DNA of 64,000 nucleotides, taken from IMG/VR virus record IMGVR_UViG_3300030099_005838. One strand, 5' to 3'. How positions within the stretch are numbered: position 1 is the stretch's first letter; every line of letters begins with the position of its first letter. The notes under the pieces were generated by a model that was not told the origin of the DNA, made no database searches, and worked only from the letters and a program-made list of their open reading frames with translations. The position numbers were made by a program, and so were the translations under genes. This document shows, in pieces, positions 2,482 to 54,261 of the stretch. Origin of the DNA: a virus.

Positions 2482-4491
2482 ATGGAAAAATTTAAGTTGT
2501 CAGACAACTTTGTTGCAAAATATAAAAGAAAGAAAGCACCTTTTGGTTTTAATGGATTGGGTGAGTTGGTTTATATGAGAACCTACTCAAGAATCAAAGA
2601 GAACGGAAAGAATGAAAGATGGTGGGAAACGGTTCAAAGGGTTGTGGAAGGAACTTATAATATGCAAATGAATTGGATTGAATCACATCAATTAGGGTGG
2701 AATCCGTGGCAGGCACAGAGGTCAGCTCAAGATATGTATGAGCGTATTTTTAACATGAAATTCTTACCTCCTGGTCGTGGACTGTGGGCGATGGGAACGC
2801 CAATCACAGAAGAAAAAGGTTTATATGCCGCCCTAAACAATTGTGCTTTCGTATCTACGAAAACACTAAAGGAAGATTATGCTAAACCTTTCTGTTTCCT
2901 TATGGATGCTAGTATGTTAGGTGTCGGTGTTGGATTTGATACCAAAGGTGCTGGAGAAATAGTAATCAAAGGTATACAAAAAGACAGAGATGAGCAGATA
3001 TATGAAATACCAGATACACGTGAGGGGTGGGTTGAATCTCTTAAATTATTATTAGAGAGTTACTTTCATGGACAGGCTCCAATCAAATTTGACTATTCAA
3101 AGATAAGAGGTGCAGGTGAACCCATTAGCGGGTTTGGTGGTGTTGCAAGTGGGCATGAACCATTATTAGAGGTACATGAAAGTATCAGAAAAGTATTAGA
3201 GGATAATAGTGGAGAACCAATTTCAATTACCACAATTGTAGACATAATGAACCTAATTGGTAAATGTGTTGTTGCTGGTAATGTTAGAAGGACTGCGGAA
3301 ATTGTATTTGGTGAGCCGGACTCAGAAGAATATTTGGATTTAAAAAACTATAAAGTAAATAAACACAGAGAGACATATGGATGGACATCTAATAATAGTA
3401 TATTCGCTGAATTGGGTATGGATTATACAGAAGCTGCCAAACGAATTGTGGATAATGGTGAGCCTGGATTTGCGTGGTTAGACAATATGAGAAAGTATTC
3501 TCGTATGAAGAATGGTGGTGATAACAAAGACCATAGAGTCGCTGGTGGAAATCCTTGTTTAGAACAATCATTGGAGAGTTATGAATTATGTTGTTTGGTA
3601 GAAACATTTCCAAACAACCATGATAGTTTTGAGGATTATGCAAGAACATTAAAATATGCATATCTATATGCGAAAACAGTTACATTGGGAAGAACCCATT
3701 GGGCGGACACCAATAGAGTTATGTTAAGAAACAGAAGAATTGGTTGTTCAGTAAGTGGTGTTGCTCAGTTTATTACAAATAGAGGTTTAGGAGAATTAAA
3801 GAATTGGTTAAATGGTGGATATGATGTTATACAGGAATGGGATAAACAATATTCAGATTGGTTTGCCGTTCCTAAGTCAATTAAGACAACATCCGTCAAA
3901 CCATCAGGTACAGTATCACTACTTGCAGGAGCGACTCCAGGATTACATTACCCTGAGAGTCGTTTTTACATTAGGAGAATAAGGTTATCCAAACATTCAG
4001 AATTGATTGGACCGATGGAAAAATCAGGTTATAAAATAGAACCAGCTTTTGGTTCAGAGGATACAACAATGGTTGTTGAAGTGCCGGTTGATGTGGGCGA
4101 GGGTATAAGAACTGCGGCTGAACTATCCATTTGGGAACAATTCAGTTTAGCCGCATTCTTACAAAGACATTGGGCTGACAATCAGGTAAGTTGTACCGTG
4201 ACATTTGATCCTGAAACAGAAGCAAATCAAATCGCTCCTTGTCTGAATTACTATCAGTATCATTTGAAAGGTATTAGTTTGTTACCACGACATGACTATG
4301 GTGCTTATCAACAGATGCCTTATGAGGCAATAGATGAGGAGACTTACAAAAAAGAAGTGAGTAAGTTGAGTAAACTATCTTTTGGTGTAATAAAAAATGA
4401 AGAAGCAGAAATCGATAAATTTTGTAACAATGATTCATGTGAAGTTATCCCAATGACAGGTGATAATGATGACCAAGATTACGCAAACTAA
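2482..4491 (+). CDS. nrdJ: class II (adenosylcobalamin-dependent) ribonucleotide reductase, monomeric RTPR type
   Basis: Motifs PPGRGLW, NNCAFV, GNVRRTAEI, NPCLEQ...CCLVE and TSVKPSGTVSLL, with a C-terminal CxxxxC. Confidence 0.92.
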   Translation: MEKFKLSDNFVAKYKRKKAPFGFNGLGELVYMRTYSRIKENGKNERWWETVQRVVEGTYNMQMNWIESHQLGWNPWQAQRSAQDMYERIFNMKFLPPGRGLWAMGTPITEEKGLYAALNNCAFVSTKTLKEDYAKPFCFLMDASMLGVGVGFDTKGAGEIVIKGIQKDRDEQIYEIPDTREGWVESLKLLLESYFHGQAPIKFDYSKIRGAGEPISGFGGVASGHEPLLEVHESIRKVLEDNSGEPISITTIVDIMNLIGKCVVAGNVRRTAEIVFGEPDSEEYLDLKNYKVNKHRETYGWTSNNSIFAELGMDYTEAAKRIVDNGEPGFAWLDNMRKYSRMKNGGDNKDHRVAGGNPCLEQSLESYELCCLVETFPNNHDSFEDYARTLKYAYLYAKTVTLGRTHWADTNRVMLRNRRIGCSVSGVAQFITNRGLGELKNWLNGGYDVIQEWDKQYSDWFAVPKSIKTTSVKPSGTVSLLAGATPGLHYPESRFYIRRIRLSKHSELIGPMEKSGYKIEPAFGSEDTTMVVEVPVDVGEGIRTAAELSIWEQFSLAAFLQRHWADNQVSCTVTFDPETEANQIAPCLNYYQYHLKGISLLPRHDYGAYQQMPYEAIDEETYKKEVSKLSKLSFGVIKNEEAEIDKFCNNDSCEVIPMTGDNDDQDYAN

Positions 4492-4583: not shown

Positions 4584-4609
4584 CATTAATGAACAACAAG
4601 GAGATTACT

Positions 4610-7357
4610 ATGAGATATCGTAATCTAATCCTTTCAACAATAATGATGGTTGGAGTTGTCTTTGGACAAGTCGTAACCGGATTTGTTGGTGAAGGTGATA
4701 AACCACTTGTAGGAGCAAATGTTGTAGTAGAAGGTACGACTAAAGGTGGAGTTACCGATAGTGAGGGTAAATTCACTATCGATACTGGTGCTGGTACTTT
4801 TGATATAACAGCATCCTACATTGGATACATAACCCAAACTAAATCTGTTAGTGTTGGGGATATAGTGTCCAGCGTCAGTTTCAACTTAGAAATTGATGTT
4901 GTTGCACTATCGGCTTTAGAGGTTTTGGCTTCTCGAGCTGATGAAAAAACACCTGTTGCTTACACTACGGTGACTAAGGAAGAGATGGAAATTCGTCTTG
5001 GTTCACAAGATATTCCAATGTCTCTGAATATGACACCATCAGTATATGCGACTGGTCAAGGTGGTGGTGCGGGTGATGCTCGTATCAATGTTCGTGGATT
5101 CAACCAAAGAAACGTAGCCGTCATGATAAATGGTGTTCCCCAAAATGATATGGAGAACGGATGGGTGTATTGGTCTAATTGGGATGGGGTAGGAGATGCT
5201 ACCTCTTCAATTCAGATGCAAAGAGGTCTATCAGCCGTTAATCTCGCTACACCATCAATTGGTGGAACGATGAACATAATAACGGATCCTGCCTCTCTTG
5301 AAAAGGGTGGTAAGTTCAAACAAGAAACTGGTAATAACGGTTTCTTAAAAACAACCTTAAATTACAATACAGGTTTGATTGGTGATAAACTAGCATTAAG
5401 TGGAACAATAGTTCGTAAAACTGGTGATGGTTTAATCGATGGAACTTGGACAGATGCATGGGCCTACTATGTTGGTGGTTCATACGCTGTCAGTAATGAC
5501 CAAAGGTTTGAGTTATATGCAATTGGTGCTCCACAGAGACATGGACAGAACCTATACAAACAAAACATAGCTACTTACTCTCAAGAGTTAGCTGGTGATA
5601 TTGATGAGTATGATGTTTCAGCATTTGCAGATAGTGCAAAATTCGAAACTGAAGCTGGTAGGTTCTTCAACCAAAATTGGAACACTATTGATGAATCGTA
5701 CAAAGGCCAACAGTATTGGTATATGTATGGAGAAGGTGGATTATTCGGTGGTGGACTACAAGATCGTAAGATTGGTGGTTTACTGAACGAAAGAGAAAAC
5801 TTCTTTCATAAACCATTAGTCAACCTTAACCATTTCTATGATGTAAATGACCAAGTTAGAATAAGTTCTATCTTGTATTGGTCAGGTGGTTCTGGTGGTG
5901 GTACTGGTACTTACGGAAGTGTATCAAGACAACCCGCAGTTGAGGGCTCACCTTGGTATGCAAGTTCACCTTGGACATGGGATTGGAATGCTGAGATTGC
6001 TCAGAACTCTGCTAATGTAGATTCAACATGGTCAGAAACCGAAAACCGTTCTACAGGTATACTTCGTAATTCAATCAATAGGCAAAATACCTATGGTTTA
6101 ATTTCCAAACTAAACTATGATGTCAACGATGACCTGGAAGTTCAAGTTGGTATTGATTGGAGAACGGCTGGTATTGAACATGCTAGAGAAGTTCGTGATT
6201 TACTCGGTGGAGACTACTATGTAGACTATGCCGATGACAATGCACCAGATGGAAAGAAAGTTGGTTTAGGTGATATCATTGCCTACCATAACAATACTAC
6301 AGTTGATTGGTTCGGTGCTTTCGTACAAGGTAAATACGACATTCAGAAGTTCAACCTTTATGGTATGGGTGGGGTATCCACAATTGGATATTCCTATCAA
6401 GACCATTTTTCTGTTGGGAAGGAACTTGTAGAAGCTCCATCCATTACGACCTTTCAAGTAAAGGGTGGTGGTGTATTTAATCTTGATGATAGATTATCAG
6501 CATTTGCTAATCTTGGGTATGTTCAAAAACCACCAATTTTGGATAACGTGATTGATTATGATGGTAATGTTGCTACCAATCCTGATAATGAGAAGTTCAC
6601 ATCAGCTGAGGTTGGTGGTTCATACAGAAGTGACAAAGTTGCCGTAAAAGGTAGTTACTACAATACACAATGGAAAGATAGAAACCTAACTCGTAATGTG
6701 GAGACAGGTGCTGGTGATTCAGGTGATACTGATATCATTTATCTTACTGGTGTAAACCAAAGTCATACTGGTGTTGAGGTAGAAGCTAAAGTTGCCCTAC
6801 ACGAGATGGTTGATGTAGACTTTGCTTTCAGTAAAGGTAATTGGTTCTTCGATGGAGATGCCAAAGGTGATTACTTAGAACAAGAGTATAATGAAGATGG
6901 TCAGATTATCGGACAGATGACAACCGAATATGTCTATGCTCTTAATAATCTAAAAGTTGGTGATATGCCACAAACTGCTTATGTCGGTGGTCTAACACTA
7001 AAACCAATCAAAGGAATGAACATTCAAGGATTGTTAAAAGTCTATGATGACAATTACGCTGATTGGTCACCAGAATCTCGTGAGGTGACAGGTGATGAGG
7101 ATAGAGCACAAGTTTGGAAAGCTCCTGGCTATTCTAAATTGGACCTACACTTATCATACAAACTTCCAGAGATTGCAGGTTATGATGTGACCTTACATGG
7201 TCATGTCTTTAATGCACTTGATAATATATACGTTCAAGATGCTACAGATAACAGTAAGTACAATGGGTACGGTGATAAACTTCACTTAGCTCATAATGCT
7301 GAAGTATTCTTGGGAACACCAAGATACTACAACATAGGACTTAGTGTTAATTTCTAA
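4610..7357 (+). CDS. TonB-dependent outer-membrane receptor (CarboxypepD-reg-like N-domain, plug, beta-barrel)
   Basis: Signal peptide; motifs PLVGANVVVEGT...DSEGKF, NVRGF, VMINGVP and IQMQRG; C-terminal GLSVNF; SD AAGGAG before ATG 4610. Confidence 0.9.
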   Translation: MRYRNLILSTIMMVGVVFGQVVTGFVGEGDKPLVGANVVVEGTTKGGVTDSEGKFTIDTGAGTFDITASYIGYITQTKSVSVGDIVSSVSFNLEIDVVALSALEVLASRADEKTPVAYTTVTKEEMEIRLGSQDIPMSLNMTPSVYATGQGGGAGDARINVRGFNQRNVAVMINGVPQNDMENGWVYWSNWDGVGDATSSIQMQRGLSAVNLATPSIGGTMNIITDPASLEKGGKFKQETGNNGFLKTTLNYNTGLIGDKLALSGTIVRKTGDGLIDGTWTDAWAYYVGGSYAVSNDQRFELYAIGAPQRHGQNLYKQNIATYSQELAGDIDEYDVSAFADSAKFETEAGRFFNQNWNTIDESYKGQQYWYMYGEGGLFGGGLQDRKIGGLLNERENFFHKPLVNLNHFYDVNDQVRISSILYWSGGSGGGTGTYGSVSRQPAVEGSPWYASSPWTWDWNAEIAQNSANVDSTWSETENRSTGILRNSINRQNTYGLISKLNYDVNDDLEVQVGIDWRTAGIEHAREVRDLLGGDYYVDYADDNAPDGKKVGLGDIIAYHNNTTVDWFGAFVQGKYDIQKFNLYGMGGVSTIGYSYQDHFSVGKELVEAPSITTFQVKGGGVFNLDDRLSAFANLGYVQKPPILDNVIDYDGNVATNPDNEKFTSAEVGGSYRSDKVAVKGSYYNTQWKDRNLTRNVETGAGDSGDTDIIYLTGVNQSHTGVEVEAKVALHEMVDVDFAFSKGNWFFDGDAKGDYLEQEYNEDGQIIGQMTTEYVYALNNLKVGDMPQTAYVGGLTLKPIKGMNIQGLLKVYDDNYADWSPESREVTGDEDRAQVWKAPGYSKLDLHLSYKLPEIAGYDVTLHGHVFNALDNIYVQDATDNSKYNGYGDKLHLAHNAEVFLGTPRYYNIGLSVNF

Positions 7358-29138: not shown

Positions 29139-30220
29139 AAGTAGGTATTACGGGCTCTAACGGTTTCATAGGATATCACCTATGGGTTCATCTAAAATAT
29201 TTAACTAAACCGATTGATAATTTAGAAGTAATTAGATTAAGTAGAGATTTAAAAGAAGTCAGTAAGTGTGATTTAGTGGTTCATTTAGCAGAAAAAAATA
29301 GAGGTGATGAAGATGAGATATATCATAATAATATATCATCTGCTAGTACATTAGCATCTGTAATGAATGGCAATCAACGAATATTATATGCTTCCTCAAT
29401 ACATGAAGATGATGATTCAGTATTCGGTAGATATAGAAAAGAAAATAAGAAGATGTTTAAGAGTTGGGCAAAATCTACTGGTGGTTCATTTTCATCATTG
29501 AGAATACCCAATGTCTTTGGCCCATTCTGTAAACCAAATTATAACTCTTTTATTGCAACATTCTGTCACAAACTAATAAACAATGAGGAGATACAGGCTA
29601 ACTCTAATGAGGTTGATTTGGTGTATGTTCAAAACTTATGTAAGCAAATTGTAGAAATCATAAGGGGAAAAGGTAATGAGGAAAGTTACACCATAGAATC
29701 AGATGTTAGATATAGTGTTCAGTATGTTTTAACTAAACTTTCTATGTTCAAAAAAAGATATGTTGATAATAATGTAATACCAGACATACATAAACCATAT
29801 AATACATTTGAATTAGATTTATTCAACACATTTAGGTCACATCTAACCAACAGATTAGTCACTATGGATAGTAATTCAGATGATAGGGGATACTTATCTG
29901 AAACTATAAAAACTGATGCGGGTGGACAATCATTCTTTTCAACCACTAAACCAGGTTACATCAGAGGACAACATTTTCATATGAGAAAATTGGAAAGATT
30001 TTGTGTTCTGAAAGGTAACGCTGATATAAATCTGAGGAAGATTGGAACGGATGAAATAATAACTTACAAAGTCTCAGGTGATAAAACACAGTATATAGAT
30101 ATGCCATTATTTTACACCCATAATATCACACCAGCTGATGAAAAGGAAATAATAACGTTGTTTTGGACTAATGAATTGTTAGACAAAAACGATACAGATA
30201 CTTATTGGGAAGATGTATAA
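29135..30220 (+). CDS. FnlB/CapF-like SDR plus cupin bifunctional enzyme
   Basis: GSNGFIG, PNVFG..CKPNYNS, DDRG, RGQHFH..K.ERF and THNI motifs. Confidence 0.85.
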   Translation: MKVGITGSNGFIGYHLWVHLKYLTKPIDNLEVIRLSRDLKEVSKCDLVVHLAEKNRGDEDEIYHNNISSASTLASVMNGNQRILYASSIHEDDDSVFGRYRKENKKMFKSWAKSTGGSFSSLRIPNVFGPFCKPNYNSFIATFCHKLINNEEIQANSNEVDLVYVQNLCKQIVEIIRGKGNEESYTIESDVRYSVQYVLTKLSMFKKRYVDNNVIPDIHKPYNTFELDLFNTFRSHLTNRLVTMDSNSDDRGYLSETIKTDAGGQSFFSTTKPGYIRGQHFHMRKLERFCVLKGNADINLRKIGTDEIITYKVSGDKTQYIDMPLFYTHNITPADEKEIITLFWTNELLDKNDTDTYWEDV

Positions 30221-31961
30221 AAAAATATCAATCGAAGAAATAAACAACGTAGAGTGTGAAACTGTCTTAGACAAATGGGGTAGGATTGCATACGGTGTTA
30301 ATCAATCACGCAAAGTCTTATATGATAGAAAGAGAAACCTATACTACAAAATATTCGATAAAGAATACTGTCGTAGAGACAATTTTATAACAGCTGTCGA
30401 AAAGGGTTACTTCAGAGAGGTCGCACCTGCTCTTCTATCACTAATAGTAGATGGTGATGATATAGTAGGTTATATTTGTGAAGGTGGAGAGACATTAACT
30501 ACACCCAATTCTATTCATACATTGCAAGAAAAACTATTGGAGTTAGTAGATGATACTAAACTATTCTATTATGATTTAGTGCCACAAAATATAGTCGTAA
30601 TGAGAAACACTGGAAAACTAAGTCTCATTGATTTAGAGAGTGTGTATCATATAGATGAGCTATACAGAATAGATAAACATAAGGCGGTAGTAAAACCAGT
30701 TGAATATTTCAAAGAATTAGAAAAGAAATGGAGAGAAAACATGGATAAGGTTATAAGTTTTATACAACCTAGCAGAAATAACTTAAAATATCTAAAGTGG
30801 AGTTATGACTCTATCAGAAAGAATTTAGGATACCGACATGAGATATGTTGGGCCGATGATTTCTCTGATGATGGAACTTGGGAATGGATGCAGGAGATAG
30901 CAGAAAAAGATAAGAATGTAAAAATACATAGAAATGATGGGCCAACCAGATTAGGACACACAATACTCTATGATACGTTAATAAATGATTATGCAACTAA
31001 TGATATTGTTATGATATACCATGCTGATATGTATGCGTGTCCAAAATTAGATGAAGAGATACTTAAATATTTAGAACCAGGTAAGGTGGTTAGTGCAACT
31101 CGTATAGAACCACCATTACATCCTGATGGCCCTGAAAAAATACTAAAGGATTTTGGTATAGAACCTGAAGAATTTGATGAGTTTGGTTTAATGAGATTCT
31201 TAGACGAAGGGGTGGACTACAGTAAGAAACCTACTAATGGTATATTTGCACCTTGGGCGATATATAAGGAAGACTTCCAATTCATAGGTGGACATGACCC
31301 GTTGTATGCTCCACAATCTAAAGAAGACTCTGATATATTCAATCGATTCAAATTAGCTGGGTATGAGTTTATTCAAACGTGGAGAGGGTTTGTGTACCAT
31401 ATGACTTGTAGAGGTAGTAGATTTAAAGATGGTGCTATGAGAAATCCAGCCGGGCAGGTTTTTATGAAGGGTAGAGAATCATCAGAATGGTTAGCTCAGA
31501 ATCTAAGAAGCACTCGTAATTTTATCCGTAAATGGGGACATATGGTGCAACATGACCACTTACTACATCCTGTCATACCACCTAAATATGATATAGCTTT
31601 TGTTGCATATCGTTGTAGTAAAAAGATACTTTATGAGCTAGAACCTTGGTGTAGTGTCATTTATCTAGACCTAAGTGATTCGGATGGTATGACTGAATAT
31701 AGACGTGAGGAACAACCAAACACATCATTTGATTTAGATAAAAGAATTAAATTATATGGTAACAGCACCATATCAGAGTTACATGACATATGTGTCGAAT
31801 TTGATGCAGATAAACTAACGCCAGAGAACTTTCAGACTATCGTTAACCTATCAGCTATAATTCAAAATAGCGGACAGATAGGAGTTATGCAACATGATAT
31901 ATTCAAATTTTTCATAAAATCTTTGGATACTTATGAAAAAGATTTAATTTTAGTCAAATAA
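30213..31961 (+). CDS. kinase-like domain fused to GT2 glycosyltransferase
   Basis: YDLVPQNI...IDLE in the N-domain; WADDFSDDGT, HADM, ED and YH in the C-domain. Confidence 0.7.
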   Translation: MYKKISIEEINNVECETVLDKWGRIAYGVNQSRKVLYDRKRNLYYKIFDKEYCRRDNFITAVEKGYFREVAPALLSLIVDGDDIVGYICEGGETLTTPNSIHTLQEKLLELVDDTKLFYYDLVPQNIVVMRNTGKLSLIDLESVYHIDELYRIDKHKAVVKPVEYFKELEKKWRENMDKVISFIQPSRNNLKYLKWSYDSIRKNLGYRHEICWADDFSDDGTWEWMQEIAEKDKNVKIHRNDGPTRLGHTILYDTLINDYATNDIVMIYHADMYACPKLDEEILKYLEPGKVVSATRIEPPLHPDGPEKILKDFGIEPEEFDEFGLMRFLDEGVDYSKKPTNGIFAPWAIYKEDFQFIGGHDPLYAPQSKEDSDIFNRFKLAGYEFIQTWRGFVYHMTCRGSRFKDGAMRNPAGQVFMKGRESSEWLAQNLRSTRNFIRKWGHMVQHDHLLHPVIPPKYDIAFVAYRCSKKILYELEPWCSVIYLDLSDSDGMTEYRREEQPNTSFDLDKRIKLYGNSTISELHDICVEFDADKLTPENFQTIVNLSAIIQNSGQIGVMQHDIFKFFIKSLDTYEKDLILVK

Positions 31962-49067: not shown

Positions 49068-50303
49068 ATGGAGATTACTGTGACCAAAAATGAATTTAGA
49101 AATTTAGTTGTATCTGAACTGAGAGATTATTTAGAAGCTAAAATGAGTTCAGAAGAAACTAAAGTCCTACAGTTTCTAATCAAGCATGGTGCCAACCCAA
49201 AAGAAGCAGAAAAAGATGTAAAGAAACATTTCAAAAATGCTAAAAGAATTTGGAAGGGTTCTACCCCAGCAAAACTTGCAAATAAAATCTCCTTTTTGGC
49301 CGCCAACGAATCCATTACAGAATCTCACCATGATAGAAAGGAAGGTAAGATGGCTAAGTATGATGCCAAAGAAATAGCAGAAGATTCACTTGCAGTCTTC
49401 AAAATGATAGATAAAGATATGGACTTACCCGAATGGTTAGAAGCTAAGATTACAAAGTCGGCTGACTATATGAACTCAGTAAAAGACTATCTAACCCACC
49501 ATATGAAAAGTGATGATAATGAGAATCAGTCTCAAAACGAAGATATGAAAAATACCTATAATATGATGAAGTCTGTTCGTAAAGGACCTAAAGTCGGACC
49601 TTGGGATATCATTGTAAGTAAAAATAACAAAGTAGTAAAAAGAGTACTTGTAAAAAATCTAAAAGAGATACCAGCGGAAATGTCTGATTTGAGAGATAAG
49701 TACCCAAACCATGTTATCGGTATAGAATCTAAAGCAGGTAAGATAGTTTACAGAGAAGGAACCTGTGGTTATGGAGTAGATGGTAAGTTAGGTGAAGAAC
49801 CAGCAGGCCCACATTTATTAAATAAAAGAAGATTACTAAAGTCTAAGAAGTTTGATTTAGATGAGGCTTGTCAAAAAGGATATATGACACATCCAACACG
49901 TAAGACTAAGATTATGTTTGGTAAGAGATATAGGAATTGTGTTAAGAAAGAAGGAGTTGATACTACAGTTACCTTAGAACAGCTAGAACAAATTGCAGAT
50001 AATATTTGTGTAAATTGTGGCGACTTTACAAATGAAAATTTAAGAAAGTGGTTCAAACAGAAATGGGTGAATATCGGAAAGAAAAAGAAGGGTGGTGGGC
50101 ATCCACCGTGCGGTACAAGTGGAAAGAAAAGAGGATATGCTAAATGTGTACCAGCAGCAAAAGCTGCTCGTATGACTAAGAAACAAAAAGCAAGTGCTAC
50201 CCGTAGAAAAAGAGCGGCACAGAATAAAGCAAATAGAGGTGGTAAACAATCGGCTGGACAGGGTAAGAAACCGATATACGTTTCTACAAAACCGAAGAAA
50301 TAA
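49068..50303 (+). CDS. modular basic polyprotein (putative internal head protein precursor)
   Basis: Short modules separated by hydrophobic-x-E sites; C-terminal LRKWFKQKWVNIG...CVPAAKAARM module. Confidence 0.6.
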   Translation: MEITVTKNEFRNLVVSELRDYLEAKMSSEETKVLQFLIKHGANPKEAEKDVKKHFKNAKRIWKGSTPAKLANKISFLAANESITESHHDRKEGKMAKYDAKEIAEDSLAVFKMIDKDMDLPEWLEAKITKSADYMNSVKDYLTHHMKSDDNENQSQNEDMKNTYNMMKSVRKGPKVGPWDIIVSKNNKVVKRVLVKNLKEIPAEMSDLRDKYPNHVIGIESKAGKIVYREGTCGYGVDGKLGEEPAGPHLLNKRRLLKSKKFDLDEACQKGYMTHPTRKTKIMFGKRYRNCVKKEGVDTTVTLEQLEQIADNICVNCGDFTNENLRKWFKQKWVNIGKKKKGGGHPPCGTSGKKRGYAKCVPAAKAARMTKKQKASATRRKRAAQNKANRGGKQSAGQGKKPIYVSTKPKK

Positions 50304-50304
50304 A

Positions 50305-50748
50305 ATGATTAAATTAAAAGACTTATTATACGAACAAGAGGTTGATAAAGATTCATCACATAAAATACCCGATCATTTTGGTAGTGGAAAAGAGATAACC
50401 GTAAAAGGTTATAAAACTAATCATTTTGATATATGTGCATCCGCCGTTGAACTATTCACCAAATTGGATAAAGTTGAAGATGAGGAAGCAACAGAATACA
50501 TAATCGAGGCAGCTAAGGGTATGGACCATATATTTGAGATGGAAAAAGCTGTGGTGAGAAAGGAAGCATTAAATCACGACCCAATCAAGCATGGTATAGA
50601 ATTAACAAATACGGTTTCGTTTCAGTTAGGTTATGTAGCAAAAATCACAGGTGAAGATTTTATGAAGGAAACTTTATTTATACCAGCCCATATAATGGTA
50701 ATGATTGAGAGACAGGATACTATAAAAATAGAGAAAGAAAATGATTAA
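50305..50748 (+). CDS. MIKLKDLLYE-leader protein
   Basis: Shared 10-aa leader; start inferred at 50305. Confidence 0.6.
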   Translation: MIKLKDLLYEQEVDKDSSHKIPDHFGSGKEITVKGYKTNHFDICASAVELFTKLDKVEDEEATEYIIEAAKGMDHIFEMEKAVVRKEALNHDPIKHGIELTNTVSFQLGYVAKITGEDFMKETLFIPAHIMVMIERQDTIKIEKEND

Positions 50749-51244
50749 ATTAAAAAGTTTATTAGTAGAACAGCCTATCGTAGAGGAAGCCGGTGTCTTC
50801 AAAAACAAAGATGCTGATAAGTATCTAAAAGAACTTTTGGATATGTTGGGTGAGGAGACTTATAAAAGTGATAAGGAGTATGGTTGGTATGATGTTACAC
50901 TCAAAGATCCATACTATGTAAAAAAATTGGACAAGGTGTATATAATAGATGAGTCAATACCACATTCGTTTCCAGCAGACCATAGGGATTTCTGTTACTC
51001 ACAGTATACCGTACCTGAGTGGAAACCGAAGGATGGACAACATACAATAGACACTCAGTTATTTGAGGACTTTGCCAAAGTAACAGGTTCGATAATTATA
51101 GATGGGCTGAAGGGAACTGTTACGGCAAGGTGTGGTGATTTGGTGGCAAATGATGTCACAATAAATTTTGTTCTTGATGTAGTCAAAGGAAAGATTGATG
51201 CTTCAAGAGATGAGTATAAAAAGAGAATATTAGCAACGAGGTAA
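50741..51244 (+). CDS. MIKLKSLLVE-leader protein
   Basis: Shared 10-aa leader. Confidence 0.6.
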   Translation: MIKLKSLLVEQPIVEEAGVFKNKDADKYLKELLDMLGEETYKSDKEYGWYDVTLKDPYYVKKLDKVYIIDESIPHSFPADHRDFCYSQYTVPEWKPKDGQHTIDTQLFEDFAKVTGSIIIDGLKGTVTARCGDLVANDVTINFVLDVVKGKIDASRDEYKKRILATR

Positions 51245-51246
51245 TT

Positions 51247-51555
51247 ATGGATAAATATAATAAATCAGTACAACATCAATGATTCCACCATGCTACTTGG
51301 GGGGACTCCAAGTATAAAAAAGAAGGTGTGGGAAAAGTAATGTGGCATTCACTCACAGAAGATGGACAAGTAGAAGTGGTGAATATACAATTTGGAAAAA
51401 ACTTTTATGAGAATGTAAGTGTGAAACATTTAAAACCTATCAAAATGGAAGCACATGGACATCCTGCAGAAAAAGAAAAGAAGGTGAAGAAAAAGCCTAA
51501 TAATGAAGTAAAGGAAATTGTAATCAATGGAACTAAGTACCGCCCGGTTAAATGA
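51247..51555 (+). CDS. His-rich protein with in-frame TGA (51280-82): candidate selenoprotein, or pseudogene
   Basis: SD GAGGT before ATG 51247; reads MDKYNKSVQHQ*FHHATWG... in frame with track ORF 51328-51555; hairpin begins 11 nt after the TGA. Confidence 0.5.
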
Positions 51556-53158
51556 AAAATGGAGCAAGAAATACAAAAAGAGTATTGATTGTAATAACCC
51601 AAAAGGATTTAGTCAGAAAGCACATTGTGCTGGAAGAAAGAAGAAGGAGAATGTAATGAGTTCAAAGTTAGAAGAGTTGGTAGGTAAAAGACTTACAGAG
51701 GAACAGTTCGATGAAGCTGCAGGTAAGAAGGATGCTTGTTACTATAAGGTAAAGGCTCGTTACGATGTATGGCCTTCGGCATATGCAAGTGGAGCACTTG
51801 TAAAGTGTCGTAAGGTTGGTGCAAAGAATTGGGGTAATTCAAAGAAAGAAGGTGTGAATGAAGCTAGTATGGAATTAAACAAACTCAAAGACGCAATCAA
51901 AATGTTTCAAAAGAAAATTGAGAAGCAAGGTAGAGTTACTAATGCAAGAGATGAAGAACACCTATCCAACTTAATTAAACTTTACAAGCAAATGGGTGGT
52001 AAAGGTGTAAAAGAAGGTGTCAATGAACAGAGTTGGCATAAAGATTTCAAAGGATATAGTGATAAAGAACTAAAAGTTATTTCTAAATTTATTATGTTGA
52101 ATGATAAAGGTATTGATGGTGTTATCAAAATGTCTAAGAAAAAAGATTTTAAACCTTTGATAAAAAAAATGGCACAGAAAGGATTACACGAAGGTTTAGA
52201 TGATTTGAAAGCCTTACCAAAAGATTTGAAGAAAAGTATTAAAAAGAATAGGGAAGAAAATGTAAATGAAGCTAGAGACCCTATTATAGATAAGATGGAT
52301 AGAAAAACAAAAATCACCTTTTCTAAAAGTTTGAGTCCAAGACTAAATCACTTAAAAGGTAAGACACTTACAGTTGTTAAAAAAGGTATTAATCTTTTCA
52401 ACGTATTACCTGATGGAGCTAAGTATAATCCAGCAAATGTCAGAACGATAGAAGCACCAGTGCTTTTGAGAATGATGAAGAATAGAGCCATAACAAAAAT
52501 TATTGATGGTAAAGGTAAGGTTCTTCATAATGTCAAAGAAGGTGTAATCAAAGAAAATCCAGCGGCAATAGCAGCTGCACAAAGAATGGTTGTACAGAAT
52601 AAGTCAGGTAATAAGATATCTGTAAATACTGCACGTCAATCTTCTTATGCACAAAAAGACCCTTCTACTCATAAGAAAGCCAAAAGTATGTTTCAGAGAA
52701 TCAAAGATAAATTTAAAAAGAAAGAATCCGTAGATGAAGCCAGAGGAACTTGTTGGGTAGGATACCAACAAAAAGGTATGAAGGAAAAGAATGGTAGAAT
52801 GGTGCCTAATTGTGTAAAAGAAATCTATGAAATTTATTATGAAGAAAATGGAGAAGGGCACGGATACACATTTGAACATATTAAGGAAAATGATTTAAAT
52901 GAAGCTGAATACCAAGGTAGAAAGGTAAAGTTAGGAAAGATAATGCAGGGTGATGTAAAGAAGTTCAAAGTGTATGTAAAAAATCCTAAAGGTAATGTAG
53001 TTAAGGTTAACTTCGGACAAGGTGGTGGTGCTAAAGGTGGAACTATGAGAATCAGAAAATCCAATCCTAAGGCAAGAGCTAATTTTAGAGCAAGACATAA
53101 TTGTGATAACCCAGGGCCAAGACATAAGGCCAGATATTGGAGCTGTAGAAAATGGTAA
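51527..53158 (+). CDS. modular basic polyprotein (putative internal head protein precursor)
   Basis: Modules KWSKKYKKSIDC.., KKDACYYKVKARY.., CWVGY..VPNCV and EAEYQGRKVKL..YWSCRKW, separated by LNE/FDE/VNE/VDE sites. Confidence 0.65.
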   Translation: MELSTARLNEKWSKKYKKSIDCNNPKGFSQKAHCAGRKKKENVMSSKLEELVGKRLTEEQFDEAAGKKDACYYKVKARYDVWPSAYASGALVKCRKVGAKNWGNSKKEGVNEASMELNKLKDAIKMFQKKIEKQGRVTNARDEEHLSNLIKLYKQMGGKGVKEGVNEQSWHKDFKGYSDKELKVISKFIMLNDKGIDGVIKMSKKKDFKPLIKKMAQKGLHEGLDDLKALPKDLKKSIKKNREENVNEARDPIIDKMDRKTKITFSKSLSPRLNHLKGKTLTVVKKGINLFNVLPDGAKYNPANVRTIEAPVLLRMMKNRAITKIIDGKGKVLHNVKEGVIKENPAAIAAAQRMVVQNKSGNKISVNTARQSSYAQKDPSTHKKAKSMFQRIKDKFKKKESVDEARGTCWVGYQQKGMKEKNGRMVPNCVKEIYEIYYEENGEGHGYTFEHIKENDLNEAEYQGRKVKLGKIMQGDVKKFKVYVKNPKGNVVKVNFGQGGGAKGGTMRIRKSNPKARANFRARHNCDNPGPRHKARYWSCRKW

Positions 53159-53421
53159 AGTTAAAAGAATTAATCGAAGAAGAATTATTAAACGAAGCAT
53201 CTAATGTAAAAGGTAAGATGATGACTCTACTAAAAAAAGATTTTAAAATCGTACATGATGGTTTTGTCGGTAATGTAATTGACTCGCCTGATTTAACTGA
53301 TGAGGAAAAATATCAAGCATTTGGTAAGTTTAGAAAAATGATGGATACGGCTCGTTCTAATTATGTGAGTGCAGTGATGAAAGCAACTAAACCATTTGAT
53401 AAAAAATTGACTGGAAGGTAA
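53152..53421 (+). CDS. MVKLKELIEE-leader protein
   Basis: Shared leader. Confidence 0.6.
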   Translation: MVKLKELIEEELLNEASNVKGKMMTLLKKDFKIVHDGFVGNVIDSPDLTDEEKYQAFGKFRKMMDTARSNYVSAVMKATKPFDKKLTGR

Positions 53422-53894
53422 TGATTAAACTGAAAGAACTACTAAAAGAAGCACCTCAGATTAAGAAGGTAAAAAATGTTTCCGTACAATACTTTGGTGC
53501 AGAGTATGCTGGTGAGATGGCTTTCTCAGGATACTTTAGAAAGGCATGGTTGTACGAAAAAGATAATGGTGAATGGTTTGCTATAGTGATTACCAAAAAT
53601 AAGAATAGGTATCAGATTGAATTAGGCAAACACAAAAATAAATTAAGTGCGGATAAGGCAGCAGAAAAAATCATTAAAAGAAATCTTAACAAATTTGAAT
53701 CCGTAAATGAAAAGATGAATCCAAGAAGATACTCTGAGATAAAAGGACAGGCTAGGTATCTTGCTATGGAAATGAAATCTTTAAACAAAGCTATCAGAAC
53801 TCAAAATGATAAAGATTTAGTAGATAGTATAGATTACATATTAGGTAAAGCAAAAATGATGAAAGAAATTTTAACGGATAAGAGATATGATTAA
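53421..53894 (+). CDS. MIKLKELLKE-leader protein
   Basis: Shared leader; internal VNE site. Confidence 0.6.
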   Translation: MIKLKELLKEAPQIKKVKNVSVQYFGAEYAGEMAFSGYFRKAWLYEKDNGEWFAIVITKNKNRYQIELGKHKNKLSADKAAEKIIKRNLNKFESVNEKMNPRRYSEIKGQARYLAMEMKSLNKAIRTQNDKDLVDSIDYILGKAKMMKEILTDKRYD

Positions 53895-54261
53895 ACTAAA
53901 AGACTTATTATTAGAAAAGAAATTAACTGATAAAGACATCAATGTTGGTGACGCATATCATAGAAAGACGCATGTTGGTTATGTGGTTAATTTTGTATAT
54001 GGTAAAAATAGTTATGGTAGTTGGACAACAATAGAATATCAATTTAAACCACAATACGGAAACCCAGAATTTATGGGAGTAGGCTTTGGATCTGCTGAGG
54101 CTATTAATGGATGGGGTAAATGGCCAAAGGTTAAAGTTACTTCTAAAATGAAAAAGGAAATGATTAAGACTTTGCAAGATAAGAATTCAGAAGAGGTGGA
54201 TGTATTAAAAAGAAATGATTTACGATTATCCAATGTATTGAGTTGGGTTAAGAGATTATAA
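53887..54261 (+). CDS. MIKLKDLLLE-leader protein
   Basis: Shared leader. Confidence 0.6.
   Translation: MIKLKDLLLEKKLTDKDINVGDAYHRKTHVGYVVNFVYGKNSYGSWTTIEYQFKPQYGNPEFMGVGFGSAEAINGWGKWPKVKVTSKMKKEMIKTLQDKNSEEVDVLKRNDLRLSNVLSWVKRL

What the first reader, a model, noticed from the sequence alone, without database searches (positions are those of the whole stretch)
51247..51555. Candidate phage-encoded selenoprotein: in-frame UGA plus SECIS-like hairpin
Seen: SD GAGGT before ATG 51247 opens MDKYNKSVQHQ-UGA(51280-82)-FHHATWGDSKYKKEGVGKVMWHSLTEDG..., in frame with track ORF 51328. Exactly 11 nt after the UGA a hairpin begins: TACTTGG(51294-300) pairs with CCAAGTA(51308-14), with a G-led apical loop about 20 nt from the UGA. 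Established: the E. coli fdhF SECIS starts 11 nt downstream of UGA, and the general bacterial SECIS model has a G at the start of the loop. Inference: the H-x-U-x-H-H context resembles a Cys metal-ligand position, so Sec could be inserted by the host SelB machinery into a putative virion-internal protein.
Basis: partly seen in the sequence, partly recalled or inferred. Interest (0 to 1): 0.85.

Follow-up and report, generated by a model that had tools for sequence, protein, structure and literature searches.

The report
Phage-encoded selenoprotein gene with SECIS hairpin
A small gene of an uncultured marine phage has a conserved in-frame UGA followed by a conserved RNA hairpin, and relatives have cysteine at that site, so it very probably encodes selenocysteine; I found no published bacteriophage selenoprotein.

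Summary
ATG 51247, in-frame TGA 51280-82 and a 9-bp hairpin at 51294-51314 are all present.

The Sec interpretation passes the standard comparative tests:
- All 107 family loci read at DNA level carry TGA. None has TGG, TGT or TGC. One extra contig has AGA.
- Codons on both sides of the TGA are under purifying selection in its frame (dN/dS 0.07 and 0.12). No in-frame start lies between the TGA and GTG 51328.
- Distant homologs share a motif H-x-[Cys or TGA]-x-x-H. It is Cys in about 24 proteins, including cultured cyanophages. It is TGA in all 5 other subfamilies read at DNA level.
- Each TGA subfamily has a different hairpin at the same place, with the apical loop 18-20 nt after the UGA and mostly G-led. 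These hairpins are more stable than synonymous recoding predicts. Cys forms lack them.
- TGA is an ordinary stop in 27 of 89 window genes, so this is not code 4.

A trap: database homologs show "W" here only because they were called under code 4.

The probable host phylum, Marinimicrobia (inferred from a phage TonB-receptor gene), carries selA, selB, a Sec-containing selD and tRNA-Sec. The host link, selenium incorporation and the protein's function are unproven.

The earlier notes of this scan that I was shown on this genome do not mention this gene.

The parts
51238..51242 (+). Shine-Dalgarno-like GAGGT, 4 nt before the start codon; it overlaps the TAA stop of the upstream 167-aa gene
   Evidence: Relatives in other gene contexts also have AGGAG/GGAG before the same ATG.
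51247..51555 (+). Full coding sequence of the candidate selenoprotein: 102 residues, Sec at position 12, own stop TGA 51553-55
   Evidence: dN/dS in this frame is 0.068 (codons 2-11), 0.122 (13-27) and 0.147 (28-70); the other frames give >1.
51280..51282 (+). In-frame UGA, proposed Sec codon (residue 12)
   Evidence: TGA in 44 of 44 loci and 63 of 63 further metagenome loci. The column is Cys or TGA in distant homologs.
51294..51314 (+). SECIS-like hairpin: stem 51294-51302 with 51306-51314, apical loop GGA 51303-51305, loop starting 20 nt after the UGA
   Evidence: Synonymous sites are constrained: Thr17 ACT 31/31, Gly19 GGG 31/31, Lys22 AAG 28/31 against 81% AAA elsewhere in the gene.
51328..51555 (+). 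The 75-aa ORF that standard-code gene callers report; it is the C-terminal three quarters of the real gene
   Evidence: GTG 51328 is an internal conserved Val codon (EGVGKV). ATG 51340 is not conserved in relatives.

Best explanation
The gene at 51247-51555 encodes a 102-residue selenoprotein. Translation starts at ATG 51247. UGA at codon 12 is decoded as selenocysteine by the host's SelB bound to GTP and Sec-tRNA(Sec). SelB is recruited by the in-ORF hairpin at 51294-51314, which acts as a bacterial-type SECIS. Ribosomes that fail to recode release an 11-residue peptide. The product is a small SH3/KOW-like beta-barrel. Its N-terminal strand carries H-x-U-x-x-H, and with H34 and the C-terminal H-x-H this probably forms a metal-binding or redox-active centre. 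Shown here: conservation of the UGA, coding selection on both sides of it, Sec/Cys pairing among homologs, and a UGA-linked hairpin. Inferred: SelB dependence, the host (Marinimicrobia/SAR406), the metal or redox role, and any virion-internal location.
For: (1) TGA is present in all 44 family loci found with a pattern that allowed any codon. It is also present in 63 of 63 further metagenome members.
(2) Pairwise dN/dS is 0.068 before the TGA and 0.122 between the TGA and GTG 51328, with pS about 0.55. Both other frames give >1. The window and its relatives show no in-frame ATG/GTG/TTG between the TGA and that GTG.
(3) A profile search of 1.84 billion representatives found homologs with the motif [VI]-x-H-x-[C or W]-x-x-H. 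About 24 have Cys. All five 'W' proteins checked translate only with TGA=W, and that W is the TGA. Cultured cyanophages S-RIM14 and S-RIM4 have H-D-C at this site.
(4) Six TGA subfamilies have stems of different sequence starting +10 to +17 from the T of TGA (five at +13 to +17; the sixth, subfamily F, is best as a bulged stem), with apical loops 18-20 nt after the UGA (GGA, GGUCU, GUC, GUU, AGUU, CGUGA). Nine Cys-form loci have no hairpin or a weak one.
(5) Synonymous-codon shuffles give P <0.0005 to 0.017 for six of seven Sec hairpins, against 0.13-1.0 for six Cys forms.
(6) The loop distance fits the published bacterial SECIS range of 16-37 nt (PMC10778597).
(7) With the Sec/Cys column masked, all 17 Sec rows fall in one supported clade (98/94). 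The UGA has therefore been kept through deep divergence.
(8) The window's TonB-dependent receptor is 50-67% identical to copies on large Marinimicrobia contigs. Five of five such genomes have a selA-selB operon, a selD with one in-frame TGA, and a tRNA-Sec match (above Rfam's gathering score in four). SelB is over the curated cut-off in 71 of 101 genomes of that phylum.
Against: There is no direct evidence of selenium incorporation.
The host is inferred from one host-like gene.
One family member lies on a contig binned with a Pelagibacter MAG, and SelB was not found in 81 genomes of that order.
The Sec context H-x-U-x-x-H has no partner Cys (no CxxU or UxxC), which from my own knowledge is atypical for redox selenoproteins.
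One contig has AGA (Arg) in place of TGA.
No Rfam family matches the hairpin.
Within the close family there is no two-sided covariation, and the 5' arm is invariant, partly because my search pattern fixed it.
For the window sequence alone, the hairpin is unremarkable against dinucleotide shuffles.
Confidence: 0.8

Rival explanations
1. Programmed or leaky UGA readthrough by a near-cognate tRNA (Trp, or Cys/Arg). The hairpin stimulates readthrough or merely reflects the protein sequence. The UGA acts as an attenuator that keeps the full-length protein rare.
For: Both sides of the UGA are translated in frame, which any readthrough mechanism explains. UGA read by tRNA-Trp gives the Q-beta A1 protein (my own knowledge). 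One variant has AGA, a single-base neighbour of TGA.
Against: Not one TGG occurs among 107 family loci or in five other subfamilies. The homologous residue is Cys and sits in a conserved H-x-C-x-x-H motif, so the residue's identity matters. The hairpins sit at SECIS distance and are absent from Cys forms.
Confidence: 0.1
2. The UGA terminates an 11-codon leader ORF and the real protein starts downstream (GTG 51328 or ATG 51340). Alternatively the gene is a 5'-truncated pseudogene or the TGA is an assembly error.
For: Standard gene callers report a 71-79 aa product in several assemblies.
Against: Codons 13-27 have dN/dS 0.12 in the TGA frame and no in-frame start. ATG 51340 is not conserved. 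The motif H10-x-U12-x-x-H15 spans the UGA and aligns with H-x-C-x-x-H in Cys forms. The TGA recurs in over 100 independent assemblies.
Confidence: 0.04
3. The phage or its host reads every TGA as a sense codon (genetic code 4 or 25).
For: Public protein databases hold this family translated with W at the site.
Against: That W comes from code-4 gene calling on short contigs. The same records also read the gene's own TGA stop as W. In the window 27 of 89 genes end in TGA, including ATGA overlaps, and readthrough gives only junk extensions. There is no tRNA in the window or in 21 related loci.
Confidence: 0.02

Closest known systems
Bacterial selenoprotein genes with an in-ORF SECIS (for example E. 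coli fdhF; Sec-containing selD of the candidate hosts)
   Same: In-frame UGA. Hairpin starting 11-14 nt after it, with the apical loop 18-20 nt downstream and mostly G-led. Cys-containing homologs at the same column. In the Marinimicrobia selD genes the first hairpin after the UGA also starts at +15, and one has the loop GGA.
   Different: The gene is carried by a phage, not a cell. The protein family is unannotated, with no Pfam or PHROG hit. The Sec context is His-rich (H-x-U-x-x-H) rather than CxxU or UxxC. SelB binding is untested.
Poxvirus glutathione peroxidase selenoproteins (molluscum contagiosum, fowlpox)
   Same: Virus-encoded selenoproteins that depend on the host's Sec machinery. 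The fowlpox SECIS also lies in the coding region (PMC8310308).
   Different: Those are eukaryotic viruses with captured cellular GPx genes and eukaryotic SECIS/SBP2 machinery. This is a phage-specific family using a bacterial-type hairpin.
Cys-form homologous domain in T4-like cyanophages (S-RIM14 AOO13287 residues 295-356, S-RIM4 QBQ75067, S-SSM2, S-ShM2, Syn9 gp185 region)
   Same: The same small barrel domain with H-D-C, then H-[TS]-L-x-E-[DE]-G, then H-E-H.
   Different: The codon is TGT or TGC. There is no comparable hairpin. The domain is embedded in 570-690 aa low-complexity proteins rather than standing alone.
Stop-codon recoded phages (code 4 or code 15 phages of the gut)
   Same: An in-frame stop codon inside a phage gene.
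   Different: Here a single codon in a single gene is affected. TGA remains the normal stop in the rest of the window. No suppressor tRNA was found.

Membership tests
Bacterial-type selenoprotein gene (Sec-UGA plus SECIS) | In-frame UGA conserved among orthologs, with coding conservation on both sides | tested here: met
   TGA in 44/44 and 63/63 loci. dN/dS 0.068 and 0.122 on the two flanks in frame.
Bacterial-type selenoprotein gene (Sec-UGA plus SECIS) | Homologs with Cys aligned to the UGA | tested here: met
   About 24 Cys forms with H-x-C-x-x-H. TGT/TGC confirmed in L001, L002 and L146-L152.
Bacterial-type selenoprotein gene (Sec-UGA plus SECIS) | Stem-loop just downstream of the UGA, apical loop 16-37 nt from it, G at the start of the loop | tested here: met
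   The loop starts 18-20 nt after the UGA in six subfamilies whose stems differ. G is in the first two loop positions in all seven hairpin types, counting the bulged fold of subfamily F. Synonymous-shuffle P is <=0.017 in six of seven types. Cys forms lack the hairpin. The published range is in PMC10778597.
Bacterial-type selenoprotein gene (Sec-UGA plus SECIS) | Compensatory base changes that support the stem | tested here: inconclusive
   Within family A the stem is 93% paired, with only one-sided G-C/G-U and U-A/U-G changes; the 5' arm was fixed by my search pattern. GCA>GCG co-occurs with TAT>CGA and extends the stem. Between subfamilies the stems differ completely but were not aligned column by column.
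Bacterial-type selenoprotein gene (Sec-UGA plus SECIS) | Host has SelA, SelB, SelD and tRNA-Sec | tested here: inconclusive
   The candidate host phylum has all four, but the host is only inferred from TonB-receptor similarity. Pelagibacterales, the label of one MAG bin that holds a family contig, showed no SelB in 81 genomes.
Bacterial-type selenoprotein gene (Sec-UGA plus SECIS) | Selenium actually incorporated (75Se labelling or MS) | not testable with these tools
   Needs a wet experiment or metaproteomic spectra.
Bacterial-type selenoprotein gene (Sec-UGA plus SECIS) | Match to a curated SECIS RNA family | tested here: inconclusive
   No SECIS hit in Rfam 15 at E<=10 over 51100-51700. From my own knowledge, bacterial SECIS elements are short and family-specific, so a blank says little.
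Programmed UGA readthrough (Q-beta A1 type) | Sense-codon variants (TGG) tolerated at the site; identity of the inserted residue unimportant | tested here: not met
   0 TGG in 107 family loci and in 10 loci of the other subfamilies. The column is Cys in homologs.
Genome-wide TGA reassignment (code 4 or 25) | TGA not used as a stop; many in-frame TGAs | tested here: not met
   27 of 89 window genes end in TGA. Only this gene has a convincing in-frame TGA.
SH3/KOW/Tudor-like small beta-barrel | Five-stranded barrel fold | tested here: inconclusive
   AlphaFold2 model with pLDDT about 80-88 for residues 8-72. The best VIA Z is 5.4 (NusG KOW), rmsd 2.4 over 51 residues. Foldseek gives E about 1 for the integrase C-terminal domain and Tudor domains. 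This is below the level that separates kinship from a common arrangement.

The most novel reading that the evidence does not exclude
This is the first bacteriophage-encoded selenoprotein family. Several unrelated groups of large marine phages have kept a Sec codon and a matching SECIS hairpin through deep divergence. They therefore depend on the host's SelB/tRNA-Sec system and on selenium supply. The Sec forms part of a new His-rich Sec/His metal or redox centre, possibly in a protein packaged in the capsid. The gene would also mark phages of Sec-using hosts such as SAR406, for which no cultured phage is known to me.
Probability: 0.65. Interest if true: 0.88.

Novelty: new member of a known kind. 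Interest (0 to 1): 0.8.

Why it matters
In the papers I could search, the only viral selenoproteins described are two poxvirus glutathione peroxidases (PMC8310308). A 2026 review of prokaryotic selenoproteomes does not contain the words phage or virus. A marine trace-element survey reports few viral sequences among selenoprotein families (PMC9402790).

If confirmed, this family would matter in five ways:
- Phages can exploit bacterial Sec recoding.
- Phage fitness would be tied to host selenium metabolism.
- It would add a selenoprotein family with an unusual His-rich Sec site.
- It would give a sequence marker for linking uncultured phages to Sec-capable hosts.
- It exposes an annotation trap. 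Standard callers truncate the gene. Code-4 calling on short contigs writes Trp at the Sec site, which hides the family from Sec/Cys screens.

Tried and rejected
(1) My first reading was that homologs have Trp, so Sec was refuted. I dropped this once the DNA showed TGA in every case. The 'W' is code-4 translation.
(2) Rfam scan of 51100-51700: only chance snoRNA/miRNA rows and no SECIS.
(3) tRNA or tmRNA: none in the window or in 21 loci. No tRNA-Sec in 5 phage records.
(4) Pfam on this protein and seven neighbours: no family at E<=0.01.
(5) Foldseek against the PDB: nothing at E<=0.001. For the Cys homolog P0092 it returned only viral hypothetical clusters at score 0.81.
(6) The search for related loci with the distant alignment A3 had no usable conserved stretch.
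(7) tblastn of P0129 against cultured phages: no match. No cultured phage carries a TGA form.
(8) The new selenoprotein families GOS_A and GOS_B of the 2008 GOS study are different sequences, and the motif strings of this family are absent from that paper's supplements.
(9) A second host-like gene (30213-31961) hit only contigs that look like misbinned phage, so it added nothing on the host.
(10) The window's TonB receptor and polB are absent from subfamily-B contigs. Those contigs are another phage group, which does not bear on the host.
(11) No whole genome is held for this window.
(12) A scan for other in-frame-TGA genes in the window found none convincing.

Full report
**Observation**

- GAGGT at 51238-42 precedes ATG 51247.
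- Eleven sense codons (MDKYNKSVQHQ) lead to TGA at 51280-82.
- The frame then continues FHHATWGDSKYKKEGVGKVMW... into the ORF that a standard-code listing starts at GTG 51328 and ends at 51555.
- Eleven nt after the TGA a hairpin begins. RNAfold pairs 51294-51302 with 51306-51314 (9 bp, one G-U) around the loop GGA.
- For this single sequence the fold is not unusual against dinucleotide shuffles (z -0.75).

The window is a densely packed phage region. Almost all long ORFs lie on the + strand, and GC is 34%. It carries a DnaB-like helicase, a ribonucleotide reductase, a family-B DNA polymerase and glycosyltransferases. The nearest cultured relative is only 46% identical in polB.

**A false start worth recording**

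A search of 5.8 billion proteins returned about 60 homologs. Most were 99-107 aa long and read MDKYNKSVQHQ-W-FHHATWG. That looked like a refutation, with Trp rather than Cys at the site.

The DNA says otherwise.
- Nine loci behind the 'short' homologs all carry the same ATG, the same 11 codons and TGA.
- A scan of IMG/VR with a pattern that allowed TGG returned 34 loci. A second scan that left the codon free returned the same 34. Every one has TGA.
- The database 'W' comes from genes called under code 4 on short contigs. Those records also read the gene's own TGA stop as W ('...KWKEVE').
- The single exception found is one 1.1-kb contig with AGA.

**The UGA is translated through**

I compared 31 distinct family sequences.
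- Pairwise dN/dS is 0.068 for codons 2-11, 0.122 for codons 13-27 and 0.147 for codons 28-70. Synonymous divergence is about 0.55.
- The two other frames give values above 1.
- The window and its relatives show no in-frame ATG, GTG or TTG between the TGA and the GTG at codon 28.
- ATG 51340 is peculiar to this window.

Both flanks are therefore read in the TGA frame as one polypeptide. That excludes a nonsense allele, a leader-ORF arrangement and an assembly error.

It is not a reassigned code either. In the window 27 of 89 genes end in TGA, including this one. No other gene has a convincing in-frame TGA. No tRNA is present.

**Sec/Cys pairing**

A profile search of 1.84 billion representatives found 104 relatives. 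Aligned, they share [VI]-x-H-x-[C or 'W']-x-x-H, then G-x-V, H-[ST]-L-x-E-x-G and a C-terminal H-x-H.
- About 24 have Cys at this column.
- All five divergent 'W' proteins I looked up translate only with TGA=W, and the W in the motif is that TGA.
- A further subfamily (AHN-TGA-ATHMEWK) carries TGA on five IMG/VR contigs of 65-168 kb.
- Cultured cyanophages have H-D-C at this site: S-RIM14, with S-SSM2 and S-ShM2 matched over the same stretch, and S-RIM4.

With the Sec/Cys column masked, a tree puts all 17 Sec rows in one supported clade (98/94) together with 4 Cys rows. The alignment is short, so the number of Sec/Cys switches (one to three) is not resolved.

**The hairpin goes with the UGA**

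- Six TGA subfamilies have stems of unrelated sequence: ACUUGGGG, AGUGGAA, AAGUUGAA, AAAGCUG, CUGUACAC, and a bulged GGGCAUCCC.
- Five start +13 to +17 from the T of TGA. The sixth (subfamily F) starts at +10/+11 and is best drawn as a bulged stem.
- Their apical loops begin 18-20 nt after the UGA: GGA, GGUCU, GUC, GUU, AGUU, CGUGA. The published range for bacterial SECIS elements is 16-37 nt (PMC10778597).
- Nine Cys-form loci have no hairpin there or only a weak one.
- I recoded the downstream 17 codons with synonymous codons drawn from the window's usage. That gave a hairpin as stable as the real one in fewer than 1 in 2000 trials for the window. The other Sec representatives gave P 0.0045-0.017, and 0.12 for the bulged one. 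Six Cys forms gave 0.13-1.0.
- Synonymous sites in the stem are frozen: Thr17 ACT 31/31, Gly19 GGG 31/31, Lys22 AAG 28/31, in a gene that otherwise uses AAA 81% of the time.

There is a caveat. Within the close family the stem is 93% paired, but the changes are only one-sided (G-C/G-U). The 5' arm was largely fixed by my search pattern, so classic covariation is not shown within the family. Rfam has no match.

**Host machinery**

No genome is held for the window. The window's 922-aa TonB-dependent receptor (4589-7357) has about 80 close relatives. Nearly all lie in Marinimicrobia/SAR406 genomes, many on contigs of 100-570 kb, at 50-67% identity. The 72% top hit sits on a contig that also carries another phage gene of this window, so it is probably a misbinned phage.

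- Five of five such genomes have an adjacent selA-selB pair above the curated cut-offs.
- All five have a selD with one in-frame TGA (SHGSG-U-ACK).
- All five have a tRNA-Sec match, four of them above Rfam's gathering score.
- SelB is found in 71 of 101 sampled genomes of that phylum.
- It is found in none of 81 genomes of the order of a 'Pelagibacter' MAG in which one family contig was binned.
- The phages carry no tRNA-Sec of their own in the five records searched.

The host link is an inference from one gene. It is the weakest step.

**The protein**

- AlphaFold2 gives a confident small beta-barrel for residues 8-72 (pLDDT about 80-88) and a disordered Lys-rich tail.
- The best structural matches are KOW, SH3 and Tudor barrels at Z about 5, or Foldseek E about 1. 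These are too weak to claim kinship.
- No Pfam family matches.
- Invariant or near-invariant residues are G29, V31, H34, L36, E38, G40, H70 and H72, plus H10, U/C12 and H15 in the forms that have the N-terminal strand.

One Sec/Cys with four or five His suggests a metal or redox site. I could not measure distances in the model, so this remains inference.

Distant members start with leaders such as MKITKSKLKQIIKEE. These resemble the MIKLKxLLxE leaders of the neighbouring window genes. In locus L039 the domain runs in frame into such a leader. In other contigs it is fused to the 'DVWPSAYA' domain that opens the next window gene.

**Comparison and novelty**

Mechanistically this looks like an ordinary bacterial selenoprotein gene with an in-ORF SECIS. 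Three things are new: the carrier (phages of at least two unrelated groups), the protein family, and the His-rich Sec context.

- Among the papers my searches returned, the only viral selenoproteins described are poxvirus GPx homologs (PMC8310308).
- A 2026 review of prokaryotic selenoproteomes does not mention phages.
- A marine survey notes few viral sequences among selenoprotein families (PMC9402790).
- The new families of the 2008 GOS study are different proteins.

This library does not cover subscription journals, so I cannot prove that nobody has reported it.

**Verdict**

I put Sec decoding at about 0.8, readthrough by a standard tRNA at about 0.1, and everything else at 0.1 or less. 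Function and host remain open. The decisive tests are a Sec-containing peptide by mass spectrometry and selB-, selenium- and hairpin-dependent reporter expression.

Noticed in passing
window 4589-7357: The phage carries a full-length TonB-dependent receptor. It is 50-67% identical to copies on large Marinimicrobia/SAR406 contigs, which points to a SAR406 host. The 72% best hit ('Flavobacteriales NAT55' contig NZWA01000089.1) also carries a homolog of window gene 30213-31961, so it is probably a misbinned relative of this phage.
   Followed up: partly
window 50302-54261 and L039 (about 3700-3990, - strand): Five neighbouring genes start MIKLK(D/E/S)LLxE or MVKLKELIEE. In L039 the Sec domain continues in frame into '...KKESK-MIKLKDLIKEGG'. 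Distant Sec/Cys homologs begin with similar leaders (MKITKSKLKQIIKEE). This fits a set of leader-tagged or protease-separated modules.
   Followed up: partly
public protein databases (P0002-P0050 and others): This family is stored translated under code 4, with W at the Sec codon and at the gene's own TGA stop. Otherwise it is stored truncated to 61-79 aa. Either form hides it from Sec/Cys screens and can mislead a homology check.
   Followed up: yes
window 51527-53158: The next gene overlaps the selenoprotein gene by 29 nt, and the overlap is conserved in relatives. Its N-terminal 'DACYYKVKARYDVWPSAYASGALVKCRK' block is shared at 72-82% DNA identity with many cyanophages. A separate 3' segment (about 52871-53158) matches two Pelagibacter phages at 72%. 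A related block is fused to the Sec domain in some metagenomic homologs. No Pfam family matches.
   Followed up: no
L141-L145 (Marinimicrobia selD): In all five candidate-host genomes selD is itself a selenoprotein gene (SHGSG-TGA-ACK). Two hairpins follow the UGA. The second (GCCCAGGUUCUGGGU and variants) shows compensatory changes between genomes.
   Followed up: partly
L158 (NHHP01000001.1, 'Pelagibacter sp. TMED166'); L159 and L161 ('bacterium TMED198'): Contigs of 12-72 kb in these MAGs carry homologs of this phage's genes. They look like phage contigs binned with AT-rich bacterial genomes.
   Followed up: no
L162 (Ga0163111_10497584), bases 334-336: This is the single family member with AGA (Arg) in place of the TGA. 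The downstream hairpin is intact. It may be a sequencing error or a natural Arg variant.
   Followed up: partly
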